A stretch of DNA of 64,000 nucleotides. Source: Eledone cirrhosa (lineage: Eukaryota). A program made the position numbers and the translations under genes. Where the stretch lies: positions 51,832,001-51,896,000 of the forward strand of contig OZ024745.1 of assembly GCA_964016885.1 (NCBI GenBank). Reading direction: 5' to 3'. The notes under the pieces are model-generated. The model saw nothing but the letters and a program-made list of their open reading frames with translations, had not been told where the DNA came from and ran no database searches. Below, piece after piece: positions 1 through 61,493 of the stretch. The number at the start of each line of letters is the position of its first letter. Within the stretch, counting starts at the first letter, position 1.

Positions 1-80
1 ACCTGCAAACGATGACAGCGTTCAAGCTTTGTCTTCCCGCATATCTTCCCCCGCTGATGTAACACTCAGAAAATACTAAC

Positions 81-3067: not shown

Positions 3068-3104
<37 letters not shown>

Positions 3105-4044
3105 GAGAGACGTAAAATAAGAAAATTATAAAATTAACTTACTTTCTAAAATATCACTTCCAACTAATTAGTTTCTGGAATGGAATAAATATATTTTCTG
3201 AAGAAAACATCGAGAATCATTCCGTCGTCAGGGAAGACTATTCTCATCTAAGTATCCAGGCAAAGCGTGGACTCTGGAAACTTATTAAAAAATAATTCAG
3301 TGGATAGAAAATAGCAAAGCGTGGACTGAATTCCTAGCCATTGAGAACATTACTGCCTCTGCGTCGGTTGCAAATTCAAAAAGAATCAATCACGTGACAT
3401 CGAGGTCAATCAGTGGAAAGTGGTTTGCTAATAAGACAGCGGCCTGCCTGCTACCATAGCAGCAGTCGTGGCCAATATTGCTCGACAAATAATTTGGAGA
3501 TAATTATAAAGAATTAATATCTAGTAACATATATATACATACAGATGCATATCAATGCTAGCAAATATATAGGTTTTGTCTTAGTAACTTTGTGGTTCAA
3601 TGCATGGGGTTGCAGAACAATAATATGAGAGACGTAAAATAAGAAAATTATAAAATTAACTTACTTTCTAAAATATCACTTCCAACTAATTAGTTTCTGG
3701 AATGGAATAAATATATTTTCCGAAGAAAACATAGAGAATCATTCCGCCGTGAGGGAAGACTATTCTTATCTAAGTATCCAGGCAAAGCGTGGACACTGGA
3801 AACTTATTAACAAATAATTCGGTGGATAGAAAATTGCAAAGCAATGGCTAGGAATTCAGTCCACGCTCTAAAGTGATATTTTAGTAAGTAAGTTAATTTT
3901 ATAATTTTCTTATTTTACGTCTCTCATATTATTGTTCTGCAACCCCATGCATTGAACCACAAAGTTACTAAGAGAAAACCTATATATTTGCTAGCATAAG
4001 TATGCATCTGTGTATATATATGTTACTAGATATACTAATTCTTT

Positions 4045-4046
<2 letters not shown>
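3105..4046 (-). mobile_element. Family A non-coding hammerhead element (PLE pLTR/retrozyme-like): 522-bp unit, partial direct repeat and inverted segment, between (TA)n tracts
   Basis: GAGAGACGTAAAATAAG recurs at 3105 and 3627; 3842-4046 is the reverse complement of ~3319-3345 and ~3505-3680; homologous element at 52506-53145. Confidence 0.85.
3157..3236 (-). ncRNA. Type I hammerhead ribozyme (family A)
   Basis: Minus strand: CTTCC-CTGACGA-cGGAATG...CATTCCa-GAAA-CTAATTAG-TT-GGAAG. Stem I CTTCC/GGAAG, palindromic stem III. The repeat copy at 3679-3758 has a mutated core (CTCACGG). Confidence 0.8.
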
Positions 4047-4630
<584 letters not shown>

Positions 4631-13257: not shown

Positions 13258-13316
<59 letters not shown>

Positions 13317-13318
<2 letters not shown>

Positions 13319-14220
13319 AAAAAGTATGACCCCGACAGCAGAGCTCAAGCCGTTTCGACGGCTATTTCTGGACTTAATTAGAATTTTTAGCCTGGTGAAT
13401 AAATAGCCGAACTTTTCAAGGGGGTACTTCCTTATATGGGAAGAATGTAGTTGTTAAGCGGATTGGTTAAAATTTGTTGTAAACATAAATAAGTCTATCA
13501 TGGCATTTGGTGGGAGGTAAGGGTGGCTGAACTTGTTGTAGAACAATAGGGGTGTGAGTGGAGCGGTCAAGGGTTGAAAGTGATATGTATACAGCAGATT
13601 CTAAGGATAGTGAATGAAGTGGAGGAGGGAGGTTATAGAACAGGTAAATCGAATAAGAGTAGGAGACAATAAAAGATTATAGAAAGAAATTAACCTGTAA
13701 TTGTAAGATAGCATTGTGATTATTTTAATTCATTTCGCACTATCAAATTTTTTTATATATTTTTTATTTATTTCTATGATCTGTTATTGTCTCCTACTCT
13801 CATTCGATTTACCTGTTCTATAACCTCCCTCCTCCACTTCATTCACTATCCTTAGAATCTGCTGTATACATATCACTTTCAACACTTGACCGCTCCACTC
13901 ACTCCCCTATTTTTCGACATGCAAGTTCAGCCACCCCTACCACCCACCAAATGCCATGATAGACTTATTTGTCTCTACGACAAATTTTAACCAATCCGCT
14001 TGACAACTTCAATCTTCCCATGTAAGGAAGTACCCCCTTGAAAAGTTCGGCTATTTATTTACCAGGCTAAACATTCTAATTTAGTCCAGAAATAGCCGTC
14101 CAAACGGCTTGAGCTCTGCCGTTGGGGGTCATACATTTTCCTATTTCCCACTCTACTACCCGAAGTATAGAGTACTCTGGTGCGTTATGGTCCATCTGGT
14201 TCCTTACCACAATACCTTTG

Positions 14221-15347: not shown

Positions 15348-15415
<68 letters not shown>

Positions 15416-15513
15416 GGTGTCGAGTTCGTGGTTGGTTGGCGTGGGGTGGAGTGGGTTGTCGATGTGGTAAGTGGGGAACTTGGGGCGGGTTGCGTGGGTG
15501 TTGTTATTAGTAT

Positions 15514-15690
15514 AATAATTGTTTATACTTTAGGCACAAAGGCCAGCAATTACCCAGTGCATTACTGGTACTTATTTTATCGACCCCGTAAGGATGAAAG
15601 GCAAAGTCAACCTCGGCGGGATTTGAACTCAGATCATAAAGGGACGTAACTATGCTGGAAAGCATGGCGTCTGACCCTCTAACGATAGCC
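15514..15690 (-). mobile_element. tRNA-derived SINE
   Basis: Matches the family consensus. Confidence 0.9.
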
Positions 15691-15950
15691 GTATAAACCC
15701 CTATCACGGACGAAATATACACTGATATTATACTAATTCCTGCTGCCAATAACCTGCGAAACATTTCTTTAATTTCTCATATTTTCAATTGCCACCGAAT
15801 ATATTAACACACGCGTTCATTTACACACACATACACACACTCAAACTCACACATAGACACACGCGCACGCACACACACACACACACACACACCCACACAT
15901 ATATGTAAATATATATGTGCTTATATTTATATATATATATATATAAATAT

Positions 15951-18178
15951 AAGTTCCCCACTTACCACCTCGACAACACACTCCACCCCACACCAACCAA
16001 CCACGAACTCGACACCAAACTCATTAGGTTAAAACACTCCATCTCTGATATCCTACACAACCCCCCCCCCTCCCGCGCGCACAACACACAACCTCACTAA
16101 ATCTCAACTCATCACTCTGTCCCACCTGAAATCGAGGAACCTCATCTACCTCCCCTCCGACAAGGGAAAATAATTCTGCGTCATCAGCAGAGCGGCCTAC
16201 AACACCCTGGCCCTCCAACGCCTTGACGATGACAACCTCTACTCCAAGTCACAGGAATCACTCCGCGCAGATCGAGGAGCACATCAACGCCAGCTGGACC
16301 AAAATCTGTGACCGGCGGAAGCTCCCGAAGAAGCTCAGATACAACCTCCTCACGAGGAAAAAGCAGACTACCCGCCTTCTACCACCTTGTGAAAATACAC
16401 AAACAGGGACCCGACCTGAAGATCAGACCTATTGTATCGAGCGTGGAAGGAGCGCTCTATAAAACTTCATGGCTCATAGCCAGAATATTTAAACTCCTAC
16501 TGAACACCTTGCCGGGACACGTAAACAGCTCCGAGGAGGTGTTGGAGCGCCTACATTAGATGGATCCCGACACCAGAACGGCTAACAGGTATGCCTTCAG
16601 CATTGATGTCGCCGCTCTTTACACCTCGGTCCCGGCGTTCCCGGCCATTGATATATTGATGGAACGCGTTCAATCTACCTACCTACACTGCTCGGGCTCA
16701 CCCCCACTGACATCCACCAGCTCCTATCCGTCGTCATTGACAACACGTATTTCAGTTTTCTCGACCAAACAGACCGGCAAGCCTCGGGGCTACCCATGGG
16801 CTCAAGCCTGTCGGGTGTGCTAGCTATCGCATACATGGACAGCCTCGAGCGCAAGGCACTCAACACCTGCCACCCCAACGCCGTCGCCTTTTTCTTAAGG
16901 TACATGGACGACATCCTCATCGTCACATCTTCCAGGAGATGGCGAGCGGAATTTATGACACGGACGAGAATATTGATTTCAGTGTTGAACACCCCAACGA
17001 CGACAGGTCCCTTGCCCTCCTCGACTTCCGAATTAACATCACGAAGCAGGGAGGGATCCACACCAACTTCTACCGTAAGACAGCCTGCAGTGACTTGTTC
17101 GTCCACTACAAGTCTGCCATCCCTAACAGTGCTAAAGAGCGTTGATCACGCGAATTAAAAACAGATGTAGCGATCCCGTGAGTGGTGTCACCCATACCAA
17201 GCGGTTCCTCAGGGTGTTGGAGACTAACGGATACCCAGCCTCGCTTACAAACAGAGTAAGAGACACCAGACACAAGAGGCATAGAAACACCCAAGGCAAG
17301 TTCTTCCTTAAAATCCCGCACCTGGGCGAGAGAACAACCAACGCTATTCGCAGGGCTATACGGAGTGAGGGCCTCGACATCCACCTGGCCCACTCGGGCC
17401 CCTCCCTACGGAGATGCCTCTCCAGGAAATCAGGGAAATTGAGTGACATGTGTTCCCTCAGAAACTCTCCGATGCGGCAAACGAACTGTTGCTTAAGCAC
17501 ATACGTTGTATACAGGGTAGAATGTGACAAGTGCAAACACTACTATATCGGTAGTACAATCCGGCCGCTACATATCCGGATCAAGGAGCACATCCACACC
17601 AGGGCCTCGTCTTTCCAGAATTACATAACCAAATGCGGAAACAAAGACGGAAGGCCCATTGCCACAGTGCTAGCGACAGAACGCAACGTCGGCACGTTAC
17701 GAATCAAGGAAGCACTTTGGATTAAACGCCTAGGACCACAAATAAATAACCGATCCGAGAGAAGCGAGACTAGGTGGCTGGTGTAAACAAACGAGACGAC
17801 AGCACACGCACACACACAGTGGCATTCGAACGATTGTTATTGTGTGTATAGCGCCCCCACCATCCACCAACCAACAAGCGACCAGACAGACTACTACACT
17901 ACCAGTAACACAGACTGAAAATAAGTAATACAATGGATTGACAGCTAGCACCATCCCACCCCCACAATAAAGAGGAGCTGCCTCGACCTTTGGTTGAGCG
18001 CACCTATTCCGCGCGCACGTGCGCTCTACAGAATAACTCAGTTACATACAAACGGCAGACAAAAGAGGCCACGTACCCTTACCCTCCGACAGATAACTTT
18101 ACCATTCGGAAAATCCCCCATTTGATGGATGCGAAATCCGAAATATAGGGACAATTACATCTCGGCCAAGGTAACTCT
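15951..18178 (+). mobile_element. Penelope-like retroelement (RT plus C-terminal GIY-YIG), frameshifted; 3' region probably resumes at ~20514-20720 after the RTE insertion
   Basis: LPAFYHLVKIHK..IRPIVSS, SIDVAALYTSVP, MGSSLSGVLA, RYMDD, then VVYRVECDKCKHYYIGSTIRPLHIRIKEH in ORF 17142-17786. Confidence 0.9.
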
Positions 18179-20501
18179 TGGTCCTGTGGTCGTTCGAAGC
18201 CCATATGACCTCGTGGATGTTCTTGTGGTAAAATAGTGACGAGCCGATTTTCATATTGTTCATGGCACAGAACTGGACAAACCTGTCTCCGTTGTCAGTG
18301 CGGTTTCCATAAGCATGGGGGCAAAGGACATGTTCAAAGTCAACCCTGCTTCCCCGGATCTGTGCGTTCATGTCTTCCATGATGATCAGGATGTCATGAC
18401 GTGGGGCTTTGTTGACAACATCTTGCAGTTGCTGGTAGAAAGCATCCTTGTCATCGTCGTTATGTTCGTTGGTTGGAGCATAGCACTGAGCTATGGTGAC
18501 CTTTGCATGGGAAGTGGTGAATCTTGCTGTCATTAGGCGTTCGTTGATAGGAGTCCACTCCTCAAGGGAACTACTGGCAGCCCTGTCCATGATGATTGCA
18601 ACTCCATCTCGGTGGGTCCCGACCTGACGGCCTGAGAACAGGATGGTCTTGTTTTCATGGACAAACTTCCCAGAGACAGTCCAGCGGACCTCGCTGAGGC
18701 CCAGGATGTTAATTTTGTAGGCTTCCATTTCTCCGATAACTTGCGCAAGTTTGGATGGTTGGTACAGATTTATTATATTCCAATATCCAATACGCGTGGT
18801 TGTTTTTGCAGACAGAATTCTGGTCCTCAGGATGTCGGCTTCCTCATCGAGACTTTCGCCGACACACGTCATACAATCTCCGGTTAGAGACAACCGTTCT
18901 CCTGACTGCTTGGAATTTGAATCTGATGCACTGTGAATTGTTTTCGTAGCAGGAGAGTTTTTCCGGGAACAGGTCACTGACCTGAAGCCCAACCACTGAC
19001 ATTTAGTAAAGAGACAGTAAGTGGAGTAGTCTCTGGTAGAACTGCAAACCGACGGCCACGGAATATGGTGTGGGTCGCCTTCAGTCCTGGACCGGTGCCG
19101 AGGGAGGATTTCCTTCTGCTTTAACCAGTGGCTTCCTTGTTGAAGCTCATACGCCTAGTGGTGCCGTGTCAACACCACCTCCTCTCGTGGTTCAGTCCAC
19201 CAGCTGAAGTGGTGTGCTGGGGCATGGCGCTTGGAGCCACACGTGAGAGATTTAGGGGATGGGTGGGGGCTGGTGATGACAGACCACCCTACCAGTTAGG
19301 GTGCAGCTGTCAACCATCAAGGGTGCTACCCCTGCCCAAATCCCCTATGCCCCATACGCCGCATAATTGAGAGGTAAAACAAATTCCAGAGGCCCCTCGC
19401 CATCAGCTTCATCGATTTCTCCAAAGTATTCGATAGCATTCATCGACCGTCAGTCTGGAGCATCATGCATGACTATGGTCTGCCCCAGAAAGTCATTTCG
19501 GCAATCAAACAGATTTACGCAAACTCCAAGTGCTGCATACGGACAGAGGATGGTTACAGTGACTGGTTTGAGGTGGTTACTGGCGTGCGTCAAGGTTGCT
19601 CGCTCTCTCCAATTCTCTTTGTCATGACCATTGACTGGGTACTAAGAAGAGCGTCTAAAGACCAGGGTATATCTTGGGTGGGAGAGCAAAACTTGTCTGA
19701 CCTGGACTCTGCGGACGATATTGCTGCACTTGCAGAGAGCACAGCTAACCGGCAAATCATTGTGAACAATATCAATGACGAAGCAGGAAGCTTATGTCTC
19801 AATATCAGTGCCAAGAAGACCAAAAGCATGTTATCTGGGACACACCCATCACCAACTAGTGTCTTCATTTAACAGGGGGAGATGGAGATAGTTGACAACT
19901 TCACTTACCTAGGAAGCTCCATTAACAATGATGGCTCCATGGACAGTGAACTGCAATGTAGAATGGGAAAAGACTTCAGCAGCATTTAACCAGCTTGAGA
20001 ACAGATCTGGAAAAGCAGGAAGTTCACCCTCAAAACAAAGATGATATTCTACAACAGCAACGTGCTCTCCACACTCTTGTAGAGAAGTGAAACATGGCAC
20101 CTTAAGAGCAACCAAGAGAAGAAGTTGGACGCATTCGATTCCAGGTGTCTACGAAAGATCCTGGAGATTAAATGGAGTGACCATGTAACAAACCAGGAAG
20201 TCAGGAACGGAAACAACCAGCAGCTAGTCTCTTCTATTATCTGCAAGCGACGCCTGGGCTAGTTTGGACACGCTTTGAGACTTCCCCCGGAGAGACTGGC
20301 GAACCAAGTACTTAAATGGAGCCCGCAGGGAAGCAGACGTAGAGGGCGACCCAATATGAACTGGCGCCAGACAGTTGAGAGGGACCTGTGACCGATAATT
20401 AGACAATGGCAGGACGCTGTGCAACTGGCTGCTGACCAAACGCGATGGAACACTATGATTGCCTCATGCGTCGCAAGACGCGGGAGCTTCTGAGTCTGAG
20501 T
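18179..20501. mobile_element. RTE-clade LINE with inverted 5' part (5'UTR plus APE on - strand, 18179-~19366) and RT/3' end on + strand (~19367-20501)
   Basis: APE motifs IGYWN..GLSEVRW..QCYAPTN..DMNAQ; RT motifs GVRQGCSLSP, ADDI; tail CTGAGTCTGAGT; TSD CAAGGTAACTCT at 18167-18178 and 20502-20513. Confidence 0.9.
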
Positions 20502-21002: not shown

Positions 21003-21931
21003 ACTATAGAGTAAAGCATGTCCAGAGAATTATTTGATAATATATATACATCATCTCTAACCACACAAAAAATCAATTAGTCCAGGCTTTAAGAATAAAA
21101 GGCTCCTGTGAAGAAATAGTAAATAAGTACGCCACAGCGGCATCTTCGCGTCCAACCGCTATAGAATATTTACCCAACATTTCAACAGCACGTGGAAATT
21201 AATTCAATATACGGTCAACCCTACATAATTAGGTAAAATTAAAGTTAGAAATGCATATATACATACCAGGATTAAATAACTAAATCCCGACACATGGGTT
21301 TCGCTCACTTTTGAGATACCTTATTAAGGATAAATCTCGAGTTTTAGAGCTCTTCAGGGCACAAACTCGCTAGGACAGATTATTTTCCGAAGTGGCCCAC
21401 GCCAAACACGAATTCAAAATGGTTGAGAACTGTGACGTGGCAGTGGTCAAGTGAGGAAGGGTGTGATTGGTTGCTTACGGCGAGTGGGCTGGTTGCTAGA
21501 AAGCGCAGCCCAATATCGCCCAAATTGTATCTCAACCTTATGGGAGATTATTAAATATAAATATTTACACATACACCAATTAAACAAAGTCACAGGTATA
21601 TATGTGATTTGGCAACCATTCACGATGTGGCTCAATGAAGGATTAATAAATTAAACAATCAGAGCGAAATACTATAGAGTAAAACATGTCCAGAGAATTA
21701 TTTGATAATATATATACATAATCTCTACTCCCAATCAGCATAATTAACCCCACCAAAAAATCAATTAGACCAGGCTTTAAGAATAAAAGGCTCCTATCAG
21801 GAAACAGTAAATAAGTACGCCACAGCGGCGTCTTCGCGTCCAACCGCTATAGAATATTTACCCAACATTTCAATAGCACGTGGAAATTAATTAAATGTAC
21901 GGTCAACCCTACATAATTAGGTAAAATTAAA
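21003..21931 (-). mobile_element. Family C non-coding hammerhead element: 668-bp unit plus ~260-bp direct repeat, between (TA)n tracts
   Basis: ACTATAGAGTAAA recurs at 21003 and 21671 with colinear homology; no credible ORF. Confidence 0.8.
21284..21362 (-). ncRNA. Type I hammerhead ribozyme (family C)
   Basis: Minus strand: GTGCC-CTGAAGA-GCTC...GAGAT..CCTTAATAAGG..ATCTC...GAGC-GAAA-CCCATGTG-TC-GGGAT; stem I is weak. Confidence 0.7.
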
Positions 21932-23414: not shown

Positions 23415-23756
23415 GTGTGTGTGTTTGTGTGTGTGTGTTCTGGGTGTCTTTATGCATGTGTTTGTGAATAGTAATATCCATACTTAGAACAACATTTATA
23501 TTATTCTCCTCCACAAACGTCTATAAAGATGACGAAATCTGTAAAATTGATAAAGCATTGATCATTAACATATATTGGAATCGAATATTCAATCAAAGAA
23601 TATATAAATAAAAACCATGTCACAAATCACTCGTCAAACTACACAAACACCACATATATTGATCAAATATAAACAAATATCAAAACAGGTGTAGAAATCA
23701 TCAAAACACTCACAATGAGTAATACAGTAATCAATAACTTACTACCAATAATACAC

Positions 23757-23950
23757 TAATAATTGTTTCTACTTTTGGCACAAGGCCAGCAATTACACAG
23801 TGCATTACTGATACTTTATTTTATCGACCCCGTAAGGATGAAAGGCAAAGTTAACCTCGGCGGAATTCGAACTCAGAATGGCAAGGGCCTTAACTCTATG
23901 CGTCAAAGCATAGCGTCCGTCCCTCTACCGATACTGCCAATACACCGCCC
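23757..23950 (-). mobile_element. tRNA-derived SINE
   Basis: Matches the family consensus. Confidence 0.9.
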
Positions 23951-24112
23951 TATAATGCAATAATAATCAAAATATTTACTACGTGTATATATGTGTCTGA
24001 GTTAGAGGACAAACATCTAATGTGTGTCATAAATTCTTTTTAGAAAATAGTTTTAAAATTAATGTAAGTAATTAACGCATTGGCTATGAAAGTTAAATAT
24101 TGTGAATGATGA

Positions 24113-30650: not shown

Positions 30651-30896
30651 TGATATATATAAATACGGGCTTCCCATATTTATCTTTCAGTTTGAGCACA
30701 GAAACAATTTGACAAAACGTATAATGAACATTTCTATATATTGTTATTCACACATATATATATATATATATTGTAAAATATGTAGGGAGTGGTATATTTA
30801 AAGAAAACATTAATGGAAGCGTGCCAGTGTAAAATAAATTTACTAGAAGCCTTTCACGTACACAGATATTAGCCTAGGTTATATTAACAATAATAA

Positions 30897-31082
30897 TTGT
30901 TTCTACTTTTGACACAAGGCCAGCAATTACCCAGTGCATTACTGGTACTTTATTTTATCGACCCCGTAAGGATGAAAGGCAAAGTCAACCTCGGCGGGAT
31001 TTGAACTCAGATTGTAAAGGGACGTAACTATGCTGGAAAGCATGGCGTCCGACCCTCTACCGATACTGCCAATCCACCCCCC
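30897..31082 (-). mobile_element. tRNA-derived SINE, full length with TSD
   Basis: TTATATTAACAATAATAAT at 30879 and 31083. Confidence 0.92.
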
Positions 31083-31308
31083 TTATATTAACAATAATAA
31101 TATCAGATGTTAACAATACTTATATACATACAATTCAAATGTAATATATAGTAACTTTACTTAATACAGTATTTTCCCCAGTAATTTGTAGTGTTTCTCT
31201 TGATTTCTGAAGATTTTAAGCAGGAACTTCAAGCTTGCATTCTGGCCCTCTAAATATTATGTACATCCATGTTAATTTTAACCAGCAATATTAGAGGCAA
31301 ATATGTGA

Positions 31309-31492
31309 ATTGGCAGTATCGGTAGAGGGTCGGACGCCATGCTTTGCAACATAGTTAGGTCCCTTTACGGCCTGAGTTCAAATTCCGTAGAGGTTAACTT
31401 TGCCTTTCATCCTTATTGGGTTCGATAAAAATAAAGTACCAGTAATGCACTTGGATAATTGCTGGCCTCGTGCTAAAAGTAGAAACAATATT
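31309..31492 (+). mobile_element. tRNA-derived SINE
   Basis: TTGGCAGTATCGGTAGAG...GAGTTCAAATTCC; GCAAATATG on both flanks. Confidence 0.9.
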
Positions 31493-31855
31493 ACATGCAA
31501 ATATGGCATGAATGTCATTTTCAGTGATTACTCGGTCTTGTTATATATCAAGATGTCTACAAATTTCCCTTCAAAAGACAGACTAATTGAGGATATATTA
31601 AACACCACGCAATTAACCGTCCGCCAAAGCTTTTAATGCAAATATACATAATGATGAAATTAATTGATAATATGAAAGGTTTTAGCTACAAATTGAAAAC
31701 GCTAAAACGTTGAAAACAATCACACACAAACGTATAGAGATTATCATATAAACAGAATAATGTGATTCAGAACACACACACGCATAGGTACACACACTGG
31801 GACACATATATATATATATATATATATGTATATATCTATTTATATGTTTTATATG

Positions 31856-31987: not shown

Positions 31988-32445
<458 letters not shown>

Positions 32446-36535: not shown

Positions 36536-39500
36536 TTTTTATTTGCCACCAGGGCATCAACAAGTGGGACAGGTACAATAGGGGGACTTTACATGAAAAG
36601 GCGTCCTCAATAAGGGGAGGCAATAACAAAGTATAAAAATAAGATAAAATATAATAAATTTTTTAAATTTCATAACAAAATCCTCAATAGGGAGGAGGCG
36701 CCTTGGGCGTCGCACACACAGCTGAAAAAAAGTGTGCAACCCTTCTCCTCAGGAGCACAGAGAGGGTGTGCTCCCTTGATCTTTCATCTTCCTCACCTAT
36801 AGTCTGATGTAGAGTGAAGGCCCATTCACACGGGCCATTCTCGCCACTTTCACCCATCTTTCATAAAAACGGCTGGGGTGCAGCACCTCTTTCTCCATCC
36901 TGATCTTTCTTCCGAAATGATATCGGAAGAAGCGGACCAGTTGTTGGCCAGAGAGAAAGGTGTCTGATCTCAGTCCTTTCAGACGCGTCAACCATACAAC
37001 CCCTTTCGCCATGGCAATTACGCACAGAAACACCGCATCTCCTTCGTTACAATAGACTCGGTGGTCAACCGGATCGGTCCCAACCTTGACAGCAGTTGTT
37101 CGACATAGCCGCACAGATCGGCAATGCCCGAGCAGTGTACCAATGCGTGTGCAATGGTTTCCTCATCGCACACGCATCTCGGACAGATCTTTTTCGAGGG
37201 GTCTCTACCCGGGCGCCCGTGTCTGTAGAGCCTTTCTCGAACGGGCAGAGCCCCTCGTTAGCACTGCCAGGCCAGGGACCTCTGGAAGTTATCCATGGGT
37301 CCCGGGCTGAATGTCCTACCGAACAGGTTGGCCAATTCGTCTTCCTCCATGCCTAGGGCTTCTCCGTGGGCGTCGTCGCACCTGCTAACCACCAGCCCTC
37401 TATAGAATGACAAGGTGGATTCTCCACTGACAGCCGGTCTTTGCTTGACCCAGGATTGCAGCTCGGTGAGTGAGACGAGTCTGCGAAAGGCTCGCCTCAC
37501 AAACGGGGCCCACACCGGTTGAACGGTGAGGAATACCCGGCAGTGCCATAGCGTTAATGCGTGGTTTACGTATCATTAGCCACGGCATCCCCAGCTCTCC
37601 TTTCGAAGGGTGTTGACAGCAGATGGATCTCCTCACCATAGGAGCCTGCTTCTTCCAAAGGAATTGGAAGAGTGCGCACTCCATTTTGGCGAGCATTTCC
37701 CTTGGGCAAGGCACAACGTTTAGGCGGTAGTAGATGAAAAAAGCTATATAAGTGTTCGCCACCCCCGCCCAACCTTTTAGGGACAGTTTGCACTCGGCCC
37801 ACTTCTGGGTCAGTGCAAACACCCTGTTCGTTACCTCACCCCAGTTCTTCTCCACCTGGAGGTCTGGTCCGAACCAGACCTCGAGCAACTTCACCGGGCC
37901 CTCCATCCAGCGCCTGAAGACGCCATCAGAGGGCATCGATCTGCCCCTCCACGTGCCGAGTTGCAGACCCATCGAATTGTCCCGGTTCAGCTTAGCCCCT
38001 GTAAACCTTTCGTACTCCTCCAGTAAGGTGCCGATCGTCCCGATTTCCGCGGCCGTCGACACCATTACTGTTACTACATCGGCGTAGGCCGACACCCCTT
38101 TCCGCAATCCCGGTTCTAACGGGATACCCTGCAACAACCCCAACTTCCGCAGCAGTGGCTCTAGAGTCATTACATACAGAAGGGAGGAGAGAGGTCACCC
38201 TTGTCGGATGGATCGCGCAATTTCGAACAGCTCCGAGAAGTAGCCGTTCACCTTGACCCTAGAGCAGATGCGGCTGCTGTGCATGGCATTGATCCAGCCC
38301 CTGAAAACGCGTCCGAAGCCTGCTGCCGCTAGCACCGCATCCAGGTAACCATGGTCGACCCTATCGAACGCCTTAGATTGATCCAAGTTGATCCGGGCCC
38401 CACCAAAGCCGGGTTCGTTCCCAACCCTCTATATGATGTATCGCATGAGGTTAAGGTTGTCGTGGATGGACCTGAACGGGATAGCACATGCCTGCGCCTC
38501 TCCCACCAGGTTGCCCACGACAAGCGCCAACCTCTTTGCGAGCACCTTGGCCAACATTTGTAACTCTGTATTTAGCATAATTATGGGTCTGAAATTATTT
38601 ATATCGTCCCCCTTGTTCTCGTCATTCCTCACTAGCGTGACTACGCCCTTAGTCACAGCACAGGGAATTTTCCCGTTCTGTTGCCAGTTGCAGTCGACCA
38701 CCTCCAGGAGATCGGGGAACAAGTCTGGCATAGCTAGATATAGTTCGTATGGAAGACCATCGAGACCCGGGGATTTGCGTTTGACGGACTGGCTCAGCAC
38801 GTCCTCTATCTCAGCGGCTGAAATCGGCTCCTCGCAGGACTTCGCCTCCCTGTCCGAGAGACGCGGCAAGCCGTCGAGGTATGGACCGAAGTCCAACTTC
38901 CCCAACCGCCTCCCCGCCCCTTCCGAACAATCTGGAAAAGTGCTTTTGAAAAGCCTCGCACATCTGCTTTGGCTCAAGGTTCACCCGTCCTTCCTGGTCT
39001 CGCAAAGAACGGATAGTGGATCTACTCCCTCTTTTGGCTTCTGTCACGCACGCCCAGCTAACAGCTTTGATCCCCTCGTTTCCCAGAGCACGTATTTTGC
39101 TTCGGACGATGCCGCCTTCGTGTTTCGCGTCGAAGAACTGGCCCAGGGCCGTTCTCAACGCTAGCACTCTGGCCACGTCGCCGCTTCTAATTGCCTCTTC
39201 TACACTATCTACCAACTCCCTTTCCTTCCTATTTCTATTTGAGGCTAACTCTTTACTAAATTCTATAGAGACTACTCTAATCTCTCTTTTGAGAGATCCC
39301 ACCACCTGCTGTTGACGATGGCGCCCGTCAACCGCTCCTTAACTAAAGTGCTAATCCGGTCCCTGTAAGCCTTACTTGCCGGTAAGTCAAGTTGAGCTTC
39401 CAGTAACCGGGTCCCTGTCTATGCGTTCTGTCAAGGTTGACCATGCAGGTCACTAACTTGTGGTCTGAATAGCCAAACATGCGCATTTTTGGACAACTTA

Positions 39501-41950
39501 AAAAGTCCTTATCCTTATTTCTAACTAAGAACCTATCAAGGTACGACCTAGATGATCCGCTGCGGTTTGCCCAAGTCCAGGTTGGCGCAGTCGGAAAATC
39601 TAGTCGATATCTATCGGCCAGGTCAAATCGACCGATTAACCCTTTGAGGCTATTACACCCCTCTCTATCGGGACAGGCCCCTACGTAGTCCCAGCGTGCA
39701 TCTAGGATACCATTCCAGTCCCCCACTAATAGCAAGGAGTGGGACGTCCCTAGAAAAGTCTCCAGATGATGGAAGAAGTCCGGCCGCATTGACCCGAAAG
39801 GGCCGTAGACGGCTACCAACTTAAACGCTACGCCTTCACCGCTGCCAAGGTCCAGAACCACTAGTCGACCCTCCGGGTCTAAATGTACCGTTTGTGTGGC
39901 CAGACCCAGATGTTTTTGCAGCAGAACTACAACCCCACCCCCACCTCCGGGCTGACAGAGAGAAGCGTGCATCTCACAGTCATCAAAGGTGGGGCCAGCT
40001 GTCGCACGTTGCTGATCCGGGCCTCGCAAATAACCATCACATCTATACGTTGTGACCTGAGGTCATTTAGTAGCATTGTTTGCTTCCAAGTTGAGCCCAG
40101 ACCACGCGCATTTAGACAGTCTACTCTTAGCATAGCCATGTTGGTGGTGAAGAGAAAAGTCACTTACCTCTCTGCGTCCCGGGTATCGGGCTGCACAATT
40201 TCCATGAGGGTGGGGGATGGGTTGTGGAGTGGGGTGGTGGTTTGTGGAAGTGTACGGGCATCAGTGTGTTGTGTGGTTTGGGTGTTTGGAGTTGTGTGGG
40301 TGTTTGGGGAGGGGGTGGGGTATTTTTTTAGGCGGACGCGGTTAATGGGCCCGACGCGGGGGGGGGGGGGGGCAGGGCACGTCCTCTTTAAAGTTGTTTA
40401 TTAGTGTTTTATATGTGTCCTCTGGGGCCTTAATCATTATGAGGTGGGAGGAATCCCCTGCCTGGGTGAAGTTAGGCCCTTGGGATTCTATCAAATTGTT
40501 GTTGTACACAATGTTTAACAGTTTTTTGTTTCTTGTGTTTATGTATGTGTATGCATGTTTTTGTTTTTGTGTGGTGTTTTTTGTTTGATGTTGTGTGCTC
40601 TTTTGTGTTGGTGTCAGTGTTATGTTTTGGGGAGGGTTTTTTTTCATTTGTGTGTCTGATGTGTGTTTTCTTTTTTTTCTTTTGATCGTGTGGAAGTGCT
40701 CTTCCTCGATTGACGACGAACGAGGGTCATCTTCCGCGTTGGAGGGGAGGGGTAGATTTTCGGGTTGTGTTTGCGGTGCGGGGTTTTGGAAATTGTTTTT
40801 TTTTTAGTGGGGGGGATGGGTTGGACATTGTTTTGTTTTTGGTTTGAGCTGTGGTTGTTGTTTTTGTAGTGGTGGTTGTGGTGATTGTGTTGGTTGTGCA
40901 GTTGTTGGTGGAGTAGGCAGGATTGGGATTTTCTTATTAAGTTGAGGACAGACAGCCCTCAGGTGACCTCCCGCTCCACAGAGGTAACACGAGGGCCGCC
41001 TACCCTCAAGGGTAATGTTGATAAAAGTTTGATCATCCAGTATGACGCGTTCAGGGATCTGGGCGATCCTTTCGGGCCTCATTTGAACTACAAGTTCGAG
41101 GCTCGTTCCACTGAACGCGTCACCCGATGCCTTTCCCATGGATATTAGTATGTCCTCGTCTAGGTTCAGGAAACCTGTCAAAACCCACCATATGTCCATA
41201 ATCGGCAGGATGGTGTGGATTTTTATTTTTTGTGTCCCTCTACCCATGTACGTAGGGTAGAAGGTGTATGCGGTGGATGTAATTGGTTTTATGGACAGTT
41301 TCACTGCTGTGTCCCTGTCCTTCATGAGAATGGATAGACTCCCGTAGAGTATATCCTTCTGAATGAATGTGATGTCTTTCATGACGTCTTTTAAAACCAG
41401 CTCTATCTCACTCTATGATGGTTGAGATGGTTTTTTGCTTTTGTTTGAGACTGTCCTAAATATGACAGTGTTTAGGAGTCTCTGGCTGTATAGTTCCGGG
41501 GGGGGGGGATCGAAAATGATCCATTTTCCCCGTACATTATGTATTTTTTTGGCATCTGCCAGTAGCTCCTTCGCTTTGGTTATATCTACTGGCAGATAGT
41601 CGAGGGTTTTCCTTGCCGTCTGGGCGAAGGAGACTTTTCTTTGTGTGTGTTGCCGTTGTAGTTGGTGGTGTTGTTGTTATCATTGTTGTTGTTATCACAG
41701 TTATTGGTCTTGTTGTTGTTGTTATTGTTATTGTTGTAGGTGTGGTTTTCGTTCGTAGCATTGTTGTTGTTGTTGTTATTGCTGGTGCCGCTGGTTGCTT
41801 GGTTTGTTGCCATGGCAACTCTCATCTCGGGAACAGTTTTGGATAGCGCTAGTTCGTAATTTAAATTCAAGAATTTTATATTCTTCGAATGAAAAGAACC
41901 TTCTGACCAGAATCTTTCTTTGCAACGAAGGCCGTATGGCCTCCGTTTAT
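36530..41950 (-). mobile_element. Near full-length L1/Tx1-clade LINE, frameshifted (ORF1 ~41870-40170; ORF2 ~40139-36800)
   Basis: ORF1 zinc knuckle CYLCGAGGHLRAVC; APE CLNARGL, GDWN, YLDRF, SDH, GYWKLN; RT SPGLDG, RPIIMLN, DQSKAFDRVDH, RQG, YADVV; AATAAA and an A-rich end abutting (TA)n. Confidence 0.92.
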
Positions 41951-42596: not shown

Positions 42597-43287
42597 AAGA
42601 GAGAGAGAGAGTGTGTGAGAGCGAGAGAGAGAGATAGAGAGAGAGATATATATAGAGAGAGATACAATACTTACACATATACATATATAATATCTCCCTC
42701 TACTGAAAATGCTTTATCTCATCCAGCAATGAGTTGAAAGTCTGTACACGTTTCCTCTCTGTCTTTCTATCAATAGAGATGTTGCAGCTTTAATTCTTTC
42801 TGAGAGAATTCTGTTGGTGCATAGAGTTGGCACATATTCACTAATTCGAGGATGATATGTAGAAGCTTCCGCATATTGCTATATATTATAGAATATGACC
42901 ACCTCCATTTCCAACATATAATGTGTGCTCTAATTTGTTGTTGTTTATTATTGCTGCCTCTTGCATATAGAGGAACACCCACGTAGTTGCCTATTCCATG
43001 CATATCATTGATTCATTGTCTTGGCACATTACCATGCAATCATAGGGAATTTGAGAATTCAATTAAATCATCTCCAACTAACACCTGTGTATATCGACTG
43101 CAGCGTGTGTTCATTTGAACCCCAGTTTCCGCCTTTCATGGGTTTGAATGGAAAACGGAATAAAACATCTTAGTTTAAAACACCTACGAAACACCCTTAG
43201 AATATTTCTTCTTCATTATGCATATTCCTCTCCCCTCAAATTGTTGGCATTCGTCCTAAATCAGAAACCATTATTATTATTACTATT

Positions 43288-43446
43288 TGTCGGACGCCAT
43301 GCTTTGAAGCATAGAGTTACGTCCCTTTATGATCTGAGTTCAAATCCCGCCGAGGTTAACTTTGCCTTTCATCCTTACGGGGTCGATAAAATAAAGTACC
43401 AGTAATGTACTGGGTAATTGCTAGCCTTGTGCCTAAAATAGAAACA

Positions 43447-43556: not shown

Positions 43557-45589
43557 TCCTTGAATCTCGGTCATTGATGTTGGTTAACTGGAAAGTCCGT
43601 TGGATTGAATATCAAGCCACTACCTGCAGCCTCAGATATTCAGGACGTATCGGAGGGTTCTTGCTGTTCCAAGCAAGCATGCCTTTTGAAGCGTTCCAAA
43701 AAGCGTGAAGGGGCCGATTTTCTTTAACCATCCCTGGAAACCTTTGGAGATAGTCCCCAGTGCGCCTATGACAATCGGGATCACTTTGACTTCATGGCAG
43801 TTCCAAATCCTTTTCACCTCCCACTTTAGGTCCTGGTATCGGTTAATTTTCTCCCTCTCCTTCTCTTGCACTCTCGTGTCGAACGGGCAGGCCACATCCA
43901 CAATCAGGCACGATCTTTTTTCTTTGTCCACAACCACCAGGTCGGGTCTATTGTGTTCCAGTTTTTTGTCCGTCTGTATCCTAAAATCCCACAGCACCTT
44001 CACCTGACTGTTCTCCATCACCGCCTCTGGCCTATGCTCATACCATTTCTCAGAATGTGGTAGATTGTTTACTTTGCACAGGTGCCAGTGGATCACCCTG
44101 CCCATCACATCGTGTCTCCAGCCCTTATAGTGGGTCTGGGCTAGGTGTTTACACTCGGACACAATGTGAGCCACCGTCTCCTCTCTCTCTCCACAGATCC
44201 TGCACAGTGGGCTAGCCTCCTCCTTGTAGATATGGTGCTTCAACCACTTCGTTTTGAGGGCCTGCTCCTGCGCAGCCATTAGCATTCCTTCTGTAGCCTT
44301 TTTGAGGTCTCCTCTTCTCAACCAGTTCCATGTCTGTGGATCTCTAAATTCAGTTTTCTCAAAGAAGGTACTATGAAGGGATTTTCCCTTAAGGCTGCTC
44401 TTCCTCCTTGATGTTATTTCCTCCTTGGACATCCCCTGGCCTACTGTCCCCTCCTTCAGTACAGTTCTGAGCATTGGCTCCTTACTATAGGTCACGTATT
44501 TGTATAGGTTGTTTTTCTCCATCTGAACACAGTCCTCTATGCTGATAAGACCTCTTCCACCCTCAGATCTCCTTAGGTAGAGTCTATCGACATCAATCCT
44601 CTTGTGGAACATGTTGTAGATAGTCAATAGCTTCCTAGTCTTCCTATCCATTTCTTTTTGTTCAGCAACATTCCATCTCAGAATTCCCGCACTGTACCTA
44701 ATAATAGACACAGCTCGGGAATTTACTGCGCTTATGGCATTTCTGCTGTTCAGATGTGACTTCAATACGCTCCTTACTCTCCGAATGTATTCAGTTCTTA
44801 ACAATTCCTTCATTTTTTTGTTCTTTATGCCATCAGCCTCCAGAACGCCCAAATACTTGTATCCTTCCTCGGAGTCAATTTCCTTTATCATCTCACCTGT
44901 TGGTATCTGGATCCCGTTACTTCTGCTCAACCTACCCCTCTTCATCACAATGACTCCACATTTACCAATACCAAACTGCATACATATATCACTGCTGAAA
45001 ATACGGACAGTGTCAACAAGCACATCCAACTCCTTCTCACTTTTCCCGAAGAGCTTAAGATCGTCCATGAAGAGGAGGTGATTGATGGTAAGCTCTCCCC
45101 TTCCCAACTTGTATCCTGCTCTCACCTTTCGCAGCATAATGGTCAAGGGCATCAGGGCAAGGACAAACAACAGAGGGGACAGGCTATCTCCCTGGAAGAT
45201 ACCTCTCTTGATCTTCACGCTTCCCAAGGATACTCCAGTTGATGTCAACTCTGTCTCCCAGGACCCCATACTCCTGCCCAGCAACTGTCTGATGTTATCT
45301 GCCACCCTGAAGATCTCCAGGCTTTTGGTGATCCAGGAATGAGGCACCATGTCAAATGCCTTTCTGTAGTCTATCCATCCCATGGCAAGATCAGTGTGTC
45401 TCCTCCTGCAATTCCCCATTACCATCTTATCAATAAGCAACTGGTCCTTTGTACCACGTGACTTCTTTCGGCATCCTTTCTGTTCGTCCGGTAACAAGTT
45501 GTTTGTGTGGAGGTGATGGTAGATTTCCCCAGACACAATGCTCGTCAACAGTTTCCACATTACGGGCAGACATGTGATAGGTCTATATC

Positions 45590-45590
<1 letters not shown>
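43557..45590 (-). mobile_element. Dong/R4-clade non-LTR retrotransposon, 5'-truncated, RT plus restriction-like endonuclease, uninterrupted frame 45590-43632
   Basis: [71 protein letters not shown]; (TAA)n on both sides, the known Dong target. Confidence 0.95.
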
Positions 45591-45650
<60 letters not shown>

Positions 45651-45849
45651 GTTATTTTGCTTTTGCATCATGGTTTCCACCTGAGAGATCTGAACAAACT
45701 GAGCAACAAGTCTGGCGACCTCACATAGTGTGCACGTTTCGCACGAGATGGGCTGAGCGAAAAAGTGCTGATATTTTAAGGCAGTAAATGTGAGGTTGTA
45801 CTCCAATTTCTTCTAATTTCTTATCTAATTCCTTTGGTATCAACCCCAG

Positions 45850-52455: not shown

Positions 52456-52505
<50 letters not shown>

Positions 52506-52510
<5 letters not shown>

Positions 52511-53138
52511 AATTAGTATATCTACCAACATGGACATGGACACATGGAACTTATACAAAAATAATTCAGTGGATGGAAAAAAGCGAGCGTGGACTAAATT
52601 CCAAGACATTGAAAAAATCACTGCCTACTCGGTCGGTGGCAAATTCAAAAGAATCAATCACGTGAGATCGAGGTTAATCAGTCAGGAGTGGGGTGTTAAA
52701 AAGACAGTAGCCGAGCCATTACTATTAACTATAGTAGCAGTTTTGGCAAATTTTTGCTCAACAAAATAATTCGGAGATAAATTATAAAGAATTAGTATAT
52801 CTACCAACATATATATACAGATGCATACCTATGCTAGCAAATATATAGGTTTTGTCTAAGTAACTTTGTGGTTCAATGCAAGGGGATGCAGAACAATTAT
52901 ATGAAAAACGTAAAATAAGAAAATTATAAAAATTAACTTACTTACTAAAATTTCACTCTTACTAATTAGTTTCTGAAAGGGAATAAACATGGTTTCCAAA
53001 TTGAGAGCATGGAAAAGCCTTTCGTCATCAGGAAGTCTGATCTCAGATAAGTTACCAGGCGATGCGTGGACACAGGGAACTTATACAAAAATAATTCAGT
53101 GGATTTTATAATTTTTTATAATTTTCTAATTTTAAGTC

Positions 53139-53145
<7 letters not shown>
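52506..53145 (-). mobile_element. Family A hammerhead element, second insertion (~530-bp unit, circularly permuted relative to 3105)
   Basis: GGACACA.GGAACTTATACAAAAATAATTCAGTGGAT at 52538 and 53068; colinear homology to 3105-3626; (TA)n flanks. Confidence 0.85.
52955..53036 (-). ncRNA. Type I hammerhead ribozyme (family A)
   Basis: ACTTC-CTGATGA-cGAAAGG...CCTTTCa-GAAA-CTAATTAG-TA-AGAGT. Confidence 0.8.
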
Positions 53146-53209
<64 letters not shown>

Positions 53210-53211
<2 letters not shown>

Positions 53212-56200
53212 TTAGTTAAGAAAAACAAGGCCACAAATTTCATAAGGAAGACATTATTAAAAGATTGTCAGCATATTTTAGTTTGATGTAAGGAATGTAG
53301 AGAATAATAATAATAATATTAATAATAATAATGTCCGTTTACAATTGTTTCGCTACTCCATATAATATTTCTGTATCAGATGACTATATATCATTATTGA
53401 TCTGGTTCAGTTGAAAATAATTAGCATATTTAAAAACAGAGCGGCTCATCGGAATTTCAAGGAATATACATTAAAATAAGGAGAGAATGTTACATAATAT
53501 AGCGTTCCATATATTGGTGTTTCACTATGGTATCCTGGTTGTATCAGTTGTCAGCCATAATCAAGCAGTATTCATCTGTCGAGGCTGAGATCTGCCTATG
53601 GGTAACAAGATGGCCGCCAAAGGACATATTTACCTTACTAATTAGAGGGTGGTTTCAGGGGAAGTAACTCCTCGAGAGAGGGTAGTTTATAGTTAAGTGC
53701 TAATTTTTAATTTTTTTTAATTGACAGACAATGTAGGGGAGGTAACTTATAATTATCTAAGTTAGTTATAGCTATTTAACTTATTAGCTACAAGTTAAAA
53801 TGGGGCTAAGTGACTATGTTGGGTCAAATATTCTATTGGCGAAGGAATTAGCCCTTCGATGTTGACAGCTCATAGTTACCTCCGTTCTATCGTTAATTGG
53901 TAGCGGTCGTGATAGTGTTATGTAATATGCTTCGGTAATACAGAGATCACTAAATTTTCTTCGTCCCTTGAAGGGTTGGACCCTAGCTACGATATCCCAT
54001 TTTAGTGAGTGTTCAATGTTGCTTAATTTAAAGTTTTTAATGAGCCTAGCTAGAGATGTCGAACATCTGTTGCTAGGGTCTCGGAAGGAAAAAGAGACTG
54101 CGTTATAACGTACCTTAAAAGGGTTAAAGGTAGACCCGATATAAGAGCTGGTATTCGAAGCAGTTTCAACCGTGCACCTATAGACTATGTTGGGTGTCAG
54201 GCAGTGTCCATTTAATGGGCATGCATTAGGGTAACGTCAGTTGCAGTTGCTTCTGCGGTTAGTGAGAGTAGGGTAGTTTAACCTAAGCGGTTGGTCAGGG
54301 CTAGAATGATTAGATGGGGGAGGTGTGCTACTAGAGTAATTATTGGTGTAGTGGCGTGGTGCATTTGATCGGGGTGGTGGTACCGCGGTGTGGGAGTTAT
54401 ACTGTCTTAGTTTATGATGGTTACTGAATGCGATGTGGCTGCTAGCTAGGTTAGGTGTTGTGGAGAATGAGATTTTAATTTTATTTTTATTAAAGAGTTT
54501 GTAATATCTATGGTTGGGGGGATGTTTAGATAGGATAGAGAAAAAGTGTTTAGGGATATTAGTGGCTAGATTATATGAGAATGTGTGTGTGTGTGTGGGG
54601 GGGGGTTAAGCCAGGTGATTTTTCTAGGTCTATACCTTCTAGGGGTTCTAGTGGAGTTAGTAGGGGCCTTCCTAGGATTATTATTACCTGGGGATTTGTT
54701 ATTTGTCATCCCATTTCTCATTCCTATTCTAGGGTTGATTTTTACTTTGCTACTTGGAGTGGGGAGCAGGCCGCTGCCACCATTAAACCTCCATGTGTAG
54801 GTGCTGTTACTGCAAAAATTCCGGCGAATCTGGCTATATACTAAGGTATTTCTAGTTCTAGTGTTAAGTTTATTATGGTGAATTGCTGTGTTATGGTATG
54901 TAGTAAATGATTTAGAAAGAGCCTTATTATAATATTGTGCATGGTTTATAAATATCTCCTCATTTGCTGATAGCATGGAGATCCTATATGAGATAGATTT
55001 GATTACTGCTCTAATGACTGCCGGTGGGTGGTTAGAGTGTGGGCTAATATATGTGAGTATTTCACCTGGTTTATGGTAAGGGTAATATAGGTTATTGCTG
55101 AGATCCAGGGTGACGTCTAGGAAGCTTACTACTTTATGGTTCGGCTCGATGGTGATAGAGAGACCGTTATTTTTAGTAATTGTTTTTTTAGCAAACCAAT
55201 GCCCCGATTAGTGCAATTGTGGACTGCAAATAGGGCGTCGTCCCTGTATATTCCGCCTTGCAAGGGTTCGATTTCGGCTCTGATGTTATGTAATAGGTAA
55301 ATTCCAACTAAATCTGTGCTTTGCGCAGAGCCCATCGTGATGTCAAAGTTGTCTGTTCTATCCTTTCTAGTCCAGAGTGCTCCGTTGAATTCAATGATTG
55401 TCTGCCTATGATTTTAATCTCATTATTGGTTATGTCCGAGTTGGTGCTGGAAAGGGTTAATGCTTTGTTGAGCAGTTCCGAGGTTATTGAAACGTAATAG
55501 CTGTCGATGTCAAATTGGATGAACCTCATAGATTGCTTGGACCTTAGATCGGAGAACCATCTAATGACTTGGCCGGTGTTGGACCACAACTTGTAGGTGA
55601 TGTCATCCCGTAGCCCAGGGATTATCCTTTCAAGGATGTTCTTACTGATACGACCCAGGTAGGATGTGGTTGGGCTTATAAGTCTAATAGATGGCTTTTC
55701 TATAAAGTTTGGCTTATGATCCTTGAGAGAGAACCTTGGGGTTGTTGGTACATAAGGGTGGGTAAATCTATCCAGATGCAAGTCCTTAACCAAAGCCTGG
55801 GCCTTTCGGTTAAGTACGTTTACACTGGAGGGTATAGTTTTTTATAGTATTTATTAAGTTCCTTAAGAAGGAAAGAGTTGTAAGTTTCAGGTGTTATGGT
55901 GTATAGATTTTTAGTTTTGTCATACATAACATGTAAGAGGTGGCTATCTTTATATACTTTTATAGTTGTTGCTAATTTAGTGAGGACATTATTCTTGTGT
56001 CTATAATGCTTTTTAAATTTAATGCTCCTGGCGAAGTTGAATAGAGCTTTCTTATGAAATGTGTGGCCTTGTTTTGCTTAACTAATGAATATTTCCAGCT
56101 CTACGCGCCTAACTTCTGCATAAACCCAGCCACCTAGCTGCTTTCTACTGCATATTGCACATTGAGCACATGCCTTTACGCTTTGGCTTCTAACTTATTC

Positions 56201-59236: not shown

Positions 59237-59668
59237 ATATATTGGTAAACGGAAAAGAAAATGCTGACAAATTGTTCACAGTGAAACATAGTTTAATTAG
59301 GAATAAGTGAGAATTAGTAATAGTATTGGTTAGTATTCAGTTCTGGTTTTACGTTTTACCGGTTGCGCATTTCAAATGCTTTTCAAAAATAATTTTGAGC
59401 TAGAGCGTCCGTGATCTTTGCTCCTAATCTGAGCAACATCACGGACGCTCTATCTCAAAATTATTTTTGAAAAGCATTAGAAATGCGCAACCTCACGGAC
59501 GCTCTATCTCAAAATTATTTTTGAAAATCATTAGAAATGCGCAACCGGTAAAACTTAAAATCAAAACTGAATACTAACCAATACTATTACTAATTCTCAC
59601 TTATTCCTAATTAAACTATTTTTCGCTGTGAACAATTTGTCAGCATGTTCTTTTCCGTTTACCAATAT
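59237..59668. repeat. Fold-back element (~185-bp arms, 7-nt loop) with a 54-bp tandem duplication in the right arm, TA-flanked
   Basis: Arms 59237-59423 and 59431-59668; TCACGGACGCTC at 59439 and 59493. Confidence 0.85.

Positions 59669-60876: not shown

Positions 60877-61493
<617 letters not shown>

What the first reader, a model, noticed from the sequence alone, without database searches (positions are those of the whole stretch)
52506..53145. Family A insertions are circular permutations of one ~525-nt unit
The 3.1-kb insertion is about 1.4 units (period 522) starting at GAGAGACG. The 52.5-kb insertion is just over one unit (period ~530) starting at a different point. More-than-unit-length permuted copies with one ribozyme per unit are expected from reverse transcription of a circular or multimeric RNA (inference).
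Basis: partly seen in the sequence, partly recalled or inferred. Interest (0 to 1): 0.75.

Follow-up and report, generated by a model that had tools for sequence, protein, structure and literature searches.

The report
Two-armed hammerhead retrozyme in TA repeats
This is one of thousands of copies of a non-coding, roughly 530-base jumping repeat that carries a predicted self-cutting RNA motif; its copies start at two fixed points rather than at random ones, which fits likely pasting by a Penelope-type retrotransposon enzyme, probably from a small RNA circle that has not yet been seen.

Summary
The periods (530, 522 nt) and the more-than-unit lengths are real; free circular permutation is not. 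The genome holds at least 4,250 and 2,033 exact TA-flush starts at two fixed sites 115-118 nt apart. Two-armed insertions use one site at each end in 90 of 91 cases, as ORF-bearing Penelope-like elements (PLEs) here do with their 36-64-nt tails. Eight subfamilies (522-556 nt) keep a covarying type I hammerhead on the minus strand, unmatched by Rfam. All passes and arms of an insertion share one haplotype (3-4% versus 32-33% discordance), 67 of 228 arms exceed one unit, and no long master array or unit-flanked ORF was found. Best reading: a non-LTR retrozyme copied by PLE enzymes, likely from a monomer circle (about 0.6). Cleavage, circle and partner are untested; no editing signature. The scan noted this architecture before in other families of this genome, and a 530/555-nt hammerhead that is probably this family.

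The parts
52459..52507 (.). left (TA)n target
52504..52531 (-). first 28 nt of the arm primed at fixed start S2 (RNA sense is minus); followed by a 5-nt filler and a jump over about 255 nt of the unit
   Evidence: 100% match to 52783-52810
52537..53104 (-). main arm, 1.07 units of the 530-nt subfamily; holds internal S2 (52783) and S1 (52898)
52651..52667 (-). conserved palindromic E-box-like block, candidate internal promoter element (inference)
   Evidence: 17-nt block the same in the majority units of all 8 subfamilies; one change in this copy
52953..53050 (-). type I hammerhead motif with pseudoknot and branched loop II; predicted cut between 52960 and 52959; in this copy the first pairs of helix I are broken
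   Evidence: 98 bits, E 3.9e-21 with model R1, which was built with this copy included
53114..53146 (+). short inverted second arm primed at fixed start S1
53143..53208 (.). right (TA)n target, shared with a neighbouring PLE remnant
3101..3842 (-). second insertion: arm from S1, 1.42 units of the 522-nt subfamily
3155..3251 (-). hammerhead with intact core and helices I-III; predicted cut between 3162 and 3161
3677..3773 (-). second hammerhead of the 3.1-kb copy, core mutated
3871..4047 (+). inverted second arm from S2 (177 nt), preceded by a 26-nt inverted piece at 3842-3867

Best explanation
A protein-free 522-556-nt unit with a covarying hammerhead fold is inserted thousands of times in (TA)n as one or two opposed arms that begin at two fixed internal sites, and it is likely copied by the enzyme of an autonomous Penelope-like element from a predicted self-cut, re-ligated monomer circle. 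Steps: (1) shown: anatomy, copy number, fixed starts, one start per end, shared haplotype within an insertion, hammerhead covariation. (2) inferred: a copy spanning two hammerheads is transcribed on the minus strand, cut at GUU (perhaps as a dimer, helix III being a 10-nt palindrome) and closed by a host ligase, as shown for coral, mussel and axolotl retrozymes (PMC7229834). (3) inferred: a PLE protein cuts both strands of (TA)n and extends both ends, one from S1 and one from S2, as the anole PLE protein does in vitro with two internal starts (PMC11167929). (4) inferred: each cDNA runs round the circle for a variable length, and the two far ends are joined by repair with fillers and small templated pieces. 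(5) some arrays over two units were later homogenised or duplicated in place.
For: Exact TA+S1 starts 4,250 and TA+S2 starts 2,033, controls 1 and 3; a longer TA run inside the unit gives 47 matches against 13 control, 3 of 12 inspected being true starts, so the start is site-chosen, not homology-chosen. 90 of 91 two-armed insertions with both starts at S1/S2 are S1+S2 (S1-anchored 0 of 33 with a second S1; S2-anchored 1 of 58 with a second S2, p 4e-9; 8 more second arms began elsewhere). GIY-YIG-bearing PLEs here show the same one-sided tail: 36-40 nt (L076, L083, L099, L100), 61-64 nt (L086, L090, L092, L096). Hammerhead: 94.5% of 965 cells paired against 86.6% shuffled and 39-52% slid, six pairs with two-sided change, helix II pair 2 in four types; GAAA in 235 and GUU in 235 of 247 distinct motifs; unit folds at z -3.9. 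67 of 228 arms are 530 nt or longer, 175 of 228 run through the predicted cut site and 45 through it twice or more; far ends have no sharp pile-up (p 0.2). Discordance at lineage-informative sites 2.5-4.3% within a locus against 32-33% between loci; tandem overlap divergence equals arm-to-arm divergence (1.63 vs 1.61% in 23 loci; 3.4 vs 3.8% in 15). 57 variants in 31 loci are fixed in every pass of one locus and absent from other sampled loci, some in 4-5 passes. Internal S2 passes number only 1,815, longest run 4 among the 100 listed: no large master array in the assembly.
Against: No RNA evidence of any kind. Cleavage triplet is GUU and the pair next to the core is a C-A mismatch; only 109 of 247 motifs pass a strict intactness filter. 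Ends exactly at the cut site are barely enriched (4 observed, 1 expected, p 0.018 uncorrected; 6 vs 3 in a 3-nt window, p 0.08), and about 2 of some 25 TA-joined ends listed lie there. No A-to-G editing signature in shared variants (A>G 10, U>C 17). Template-borne private variation is small, so the tandem-versus-arm test has little power against a young homogeneous multimer. Some long arrays are more uniform than their opposite arm (L033, L053, L003) or show a gradient (L028, L210), so array length alone is not evidence for rolling copying. Four loci have mosaic-looking passes (L002, L030, L186, L210). Pseudoknot helix shows no two-sided change in A3. One PLE family (L072, L080, L097, L098) showed no tail asymmetry. 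The partner PLE is not identified.
Confidence: 0.6

Rival explanations
1. Same PLE-driven insertion, but the template is a linear, terminally redundant 1.x-unit RNA on which the enzyme jumps by homology from the 5' end back to the 3' repeat, mimicking a circle.
For: Gives seamless multimers, one haplotype and no pile-up of ends; ribozyme mutants did not impair anole PLE insertion in vitro and uncut RNA was the main template (PMC11167929); four mosaic-looking loci; junction fillers and short extra pieces show template switching occurs.
Against: Does not explain why a covarying hammerhead is kept in 8 subfamilies 70-80% apart; intermolecular jumps should give more mosaics than 4 among the multi-pass loci of two subfamilies.
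Confidence: 0.2
2. Uncut multimeric transcripts of a few homogeneous tandem master loci are the templates; the ribozyme is incidental.
For: 175 of 228 arms read through the cut site; arrays up to 4.8 units exist (L187); local homogenisation of arrays is visible.
Against: Only 1,815 exact internal S2 passes genome-wide and no run over 4 among 100 listed; many haplotypes in 8 subfamilies would each need a master; truncating copy of linear RNA can only shorten arrays; no recurrent arm junction among 65 listed.
Confidence: 0.12
3. The unit is merely the pLTR of an unsampled autonomous PLE and the copies are its 5'-truncated ends.
For: All insertion marks are those of PLEs; 10,597 GIY-YIG candidates in the genome, only 40 loci examined; four insertions abut PLE sequence without TA.
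Against: Units run head to tail with no ORF between them; none of 144 sampled insertions continues into an ORF whose 3' end is the unit, and the abutting PLEs have their own different 3' ends; profile and RNA-model scans of 40 PLE loci hit only separate unit insertions.
Confidence: 0.05
4. DNA-level spread (satellite expansion or rolling-circle DNA transposition) without an RNA step.
For: Tandem units; some in-place homogenisation.
Against: Fixed start with variable far end, inverted second arms, PLE-type tail asymmetry and RNA-structure covariation.
Confidence: 0.03

Closest known systems
Metazoan non-LTR retrozymes (Cervera and de la Pena 2020, PMC7229834, parts 2-4 of 6 read; Li, Clavereau and Pollet 2026, bioRxiv 10.64898/2026.07.22.740005, parts 1-3 of 5 read)
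   Same: ORF-less tandem unit, one type I hammerhead per unit, low GC, co-occurrence with PLEs, stable predicted fold; a mismatch at the base of helix II is reported for an axolotl motif.
   Different: Unit 522-556 nt (170-400 nt in the 2020 paper, within the 51-972 range of the 2026 preprint); mostly 0.1-2 units per arm, dispersed, two-armed; hammerhead has a 40-nt branched loop II, a predicted pseudoknot and a GUU triplet and is missed by Rfam; circles and cleavage shown there, untested here.
Penelope-like elements, Poseidon PAc (Frangieh et al. 2024, PMC11167929, parts 1-2 of 4 read) and Neptune/Naiad structure (Craig et al. 2021, PMC8557442, passages read)
   Same: Two fixed internal starts defining a tail, both strands extended, inverted truncated second copy, (TA)n targets.
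   Different: No RT-EN ORF; tail 115-118 nt against 30-40 nt; units directly tandem.
Non-autonomous Chlamys elements such as MRC1 (PMC8557442, passage read)
   Same: Non-autonomous PLE-type, multicopy head-to-tail insertions.
   Different: Those share 3' sequence with an autonomous family and mostly lack hammerheads; no such shared 3' end was found here.
Minimal PLE hammerheads (Cervera and de la Pena 2014, PMC4209133, parts 1-2 of 4 read)
   Same: Extra nucleotide after A9, G-C opening helix II, palindromic helix III suited to dimers; that paper already proposes circles as templates for more-than-unit copies.
   Different: Here helix III has 3-4 pairs, loop II is long and structured, and the motif sits in an ORF-less unit.

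Membership tests
non-LTR retrozyme | tandem repeat unit of some hundred bases without ORF, LTR, PBS or PPT | tested here: met
   head-to-tail units up to 4.8, no ORF of 110 aa over either window copy; PBS/PPT not searched separately
non-LTR retrozyme | type I hammerhead in each unit | tested here: met
   descriptor hit in 8 of 8 subfamily majority units, one strand only; covariation; no Rfam match
non-LTR retrozyme | self-cleavage of the RNA | not testable with these tools
   indirect: 4 arm ends exactly at the site, weak
non-LTR retrozyme | expressed as monomeric circular RNA | not testable with these tools
   needs RNA data; DNA evidence fits a monomer template
non-LTR retrozyme | co-occurrence with autonomous PLEs | tested here: met
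   10,597 GIY-YIG candidates, 150 scored over the cut-off, frames up to 1,096 aa
Penelope-like element (autonomous) | RT plus GIY-YIG ORF between pLTRs | tested here: not met
   0 of 144 sampled insertions; 0 of 40 PLE loci have the unit as pLTR
Penelope-type insertion footprint | two fixed 3' ends (tail), tail at one end only, inverted truncated second arm, AT-rich target | tested here: met
   same pattern in ORF-bearing PLEs of this genome
non-autonomous derivative of a named PLE family | sequence shared with the pLTR or 3' end of an autonomous partner | tested here: inconclusive
   none among 40 loci of about 7 families; four abutting PLE fragments of two families
pseudoknotted hammerhead | bases before helix I pair with loop II | tested here: inconclusive
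   90% paired, no two-sided change in A3; two copies outside A3 (L226, L242) show a compensated version by eye

The most novel reading that the evidence does not exclude
Every insertion is a fossil of one PLE enzyme dimer copying a single ribozyme-made RNA circle from both ends of a (TA)n break at two different fixed sites, giving direct genomic proof of the proposed retrozyme life cycle, with a pseudoknot-braced, GUU-cutting animal hammerhead class that Rfam misses.
Probability: 0.4. Interest if true: 0.7.

Novelty: new member of a known kind. Interest (0 to 1): 0.48.

Why it matters
That PLE enzymes copy retrozyme circles into genomes is proposed in the papers read (PMC7229834, PMC4209133, the 2026 preprint) but not shown there. 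This family gives exact, testable predictions: which strand, which cut site, two start sites 115-118 nt apart, one per target end, and one haplotype per insertion. The near-strict S1/S2 pairing also bears on how PLE tails arise. The hammerhead is invisible to Rfam and to short-helix descriptors, so such families are probably undercounted.

Tried and rejected
Random circular permutation: rejected. My own first reading that the motif had no helix II and was no hammerhead (notes 1-2): overturned by the descriptor search. Rfam: no ribozyme match in the window or in two unit stretches. Sequencing runs: no RNA holder listed; contigs of two coded runs laid add nothing on RNA; the second run gave a single contig. 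Apparent pile-up of far ends near the ribozyme: not significant in the anchored set (p 0.2), significant only with similarity-selected loci added (p 0.0075). Editing signature: none. TA-joined ends at the cut site: no clear excess; one search returned only a count (4,107) because trailing N is ignored. Search for the autonomous partner among 40 GIY-YIG loci: negative. One search dropped 53 loci as duplicates by too loose a rule; redid it (4 duplicates, 2 internal starts left out of 150). L241 (two adjacent insertions of different subfamilies) is but left out. Alignment A2 had three mis-cut rows and was replaced by A3: 41 of the 50 motifs listed (of 247 distinct) plus one window copy; left out were truncated, duplicated or second copies from a locus and two others. 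PMC1636495 held no passage on GUU. Look-ups of earlier findings by sequence were blank.

Full report
Observation. Self-comparison confirms both periods and lengths: 530 nt and 1.07 units at 52537-53104, 522 nt and 1.42 units at 3101-3842, 81% identity between the two. Both sit in (TA)n. That jump, with a short repeated filler, looks like repair or template switching (inference); it is not a start point.

Family. The genome is 3.0 Gb; the two units drew 2,917 and 1,585 first-look candidates. In the 60 loci found with whole-unit queries, arms began almost always at one of two sites, S1 and S2, flush with (TA)n, while the other end varied. Exact patterns give 4,250 TA+S1 and 2,033 TA+S2 junctions, with 1 and 3 control matches. 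A longer TA run inside the unit gives 47 matches against 13 control, and 3 of 12 inspected were true starts. So the start is fixed by site. A fixed end with a variable far end marks the fixed end as the RNA 3' side, making the window's minus strand the RNA (established retrotransposon logic); the hammerhead lies on that strand only, which agrees. Of 303 TA-flush arms, 146 began at S1, 151 at S2 and 6 elsewhere, but most of these loci were fetched by S1 or S2 patterns, so the unbiased figure is the second arms: 91 of 99 began at S1 or S2. 88 full units fell into 8 clusters of 522-556 nt.

Asymmetry. Of 144 non-duplicate anchored insertions, 99 had a second, inverted arm, 44 had one arm and 1 ran off the locus. 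In 90 of the 91 with both starts at S1/S2 the two arms used different sites. The window's two copies obey this. ORF-bearing PLEs in the same genome show the same one-sided extension of 36-40 or 61-64 nt in eight loci, while one family (four loci) showed none. Craig et al. describe the tail, the inverted truncated copy and (TA)n targets (PMC8557442, passages); Frangieh et al. show a PLE protein cutting and extending both strands and starting at two internal RNA sites that define the tail (PMC11167929, parts 1-2 of 4). The footprint is therefore that of PLE enzymes.

Ribozyme. Rfam finds nothing and I first doubted the motif. A descriptor allowing a long loop II found a type I fold in all 8 majority units: helix I, core CUGANGA, a C-A mismatch, 6-bp helix II, a loop with its own hairpin, GAAA, a 10-nt palindromic helix III and GUU. 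On 42 copies 94.5% of 965 cells pair (shuffles 86.6%, slid controls 39-52%), with two-sided changes in helices I, II and the loop hairpin; related sequences can beat the shuffles without structure, so the four pair types at one helix II position are the stronger point. The pseudoknot is 90% paired but without two-sided change in that alignment; two copies outside it show a compensated form by eye. GUU is listed among active NUH sites in a review (PMC3138052, three passages); that it cuts slowly is recalled, not checked. 109 of 247 distinct motifs pass a strict filter. The 52.5-kb copy has one motif with a broken helix I, and the 3.1-kb copy one intact and one core-mutated motif, so neither should yield a monomer (inference).

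Template. 67 of 228 anchored arms are 530 nt or longer; 175 read through the predicted cut, 45 twice or more; far ends have no sharp pile-up. A cut linear monomer is therefore not the usual template. Passes and opposite arms of one insertion share lineage alleles (2.5-4.3% discordance against 32-33% between loci), and overlaps within 1.x-unit arms have diverged as much as opposite arms, so these arms were made at insertion. 57 variants are fixed in all passes of one locus and unseen in the other sampled loci of the subfamily; this needs a monomer bottleneck followed by re-expansion somewhere in the ancestry. Long masters are not evident: 1,815 internal S2 passes in all, longest run 4 among 100 listed; collapsed arrays cannot be excluded. 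Against over-reading: private variation is small, so young homogeneous multimers are not excluded by divergence; some long arrays were homogenised later; four loci look mosaic; there is no editing signature; ends at the cut site are only weakly enriched. A circle is the simplest re-expansion route and has precedent (PMC7229834, parts 2-4 of 6; proposed for PLEs in PMC4209133, parts 1-2 of 4), but homologous jumping on a redundant linear RNA predicts the same DNA.

Partner. The genome is rich in PLEs. None of 40 PLE loci carries the unit as pLTR. Four insertions abut PLE fragments of two families without TA between; these may be mixed two-template insertions or neighbours joined by deletion.

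Known or new. It files as a non-LTR retrozyme on structure; cleavage and circles are untested. The 2026 preprint (parts 1-3 of 5) argues such units derive from PLEs and covers this size range, but reports no end mapping in the parts read. Searches for retrozyme with cephalopod, octopus with hammerhead and Penelope, and PLE tail with both ends listed no paper describing this family or the S1/S2 pairing in an ORF-less unit. Supplements were not seen; those of PMC7229834 and the preprint may list related mollusc units. The host group is not established here; an earlier scan note calls it a cephalopod. Earlier scan notes report the same architecture for 310-, 464-472-, 558- and 591-nt families and a similar hammerhead for 530/555-nt families; they are unchecked and add no independent support.

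Verdict. Real feature, partly misread; new member of a known kind with unusually clean mechanistic footprints; interest 0.48.

Noticed in passing
window 53209-56088: Broken PLE on the minus strand sharing the right (TA)n; 42-nt inverted copy of its 3' end at 56047-56088; candidate hammerhead cores in its 3' region.
   Followed up: partly
window 16130-17786: Broken PLE on the plus strand with RVT_1 and weak GIY-YIG matches.
   Followed up: partly
window 59243-59664: Two-armed hairpin made only of the 3' end of the L099-type PLE, with the tail on one side and a 54-nt tandem inside.
   Followed up: partly
window 13316-14142, 15415-16017, 21003-21931, 31989-32213, 61021-61493: Further inverted insertions in (TA)n; the first has a 79-nt one-sided tail; weak hits of my models at 32110-32183 (E 0.049) and 21409-21637 (E 0.064) hint at other ribozyme-bearing families.
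   Followed up: no
window 72-585, 7681-7854, 11783-11968, 15512-15698, 23753-23967, 30879-31101, 31286-31500, 43285-43446: Dispersed family of about 160-190 nt, SINE-like in size.
   Followed up: no
window 18099-19872, 37400-40062, 43632-45812: Three LINE-like endonuclease/RT remnants, read from the translations by eye.
   Followed up: no
L216, L247, L192, L177: Unit arms joined directly to fragments of two PLE families, inverted in two cases and in the same direction in two.
   Followed up: partly
L061 3' region (minus strand): Minimal hammerhead with a U3-A8 core in an autonomous PLE family; the L099-type family seems to carry a degenerate form.
   Followed up: partly
L028, L053, L033, L210: Neighbouring units within long arrays are more alike than distant units or the opposite arm: later duplication, conversion or assembly polishing.
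   Followed up: partly
unit, just upstream of S1 and S2 in RNA sense: A hairpin is predicted 10-20 nt before each start in all 8 subfamilies, strong at S2 and weak and AU-rich at S1.
   Followed up: partly
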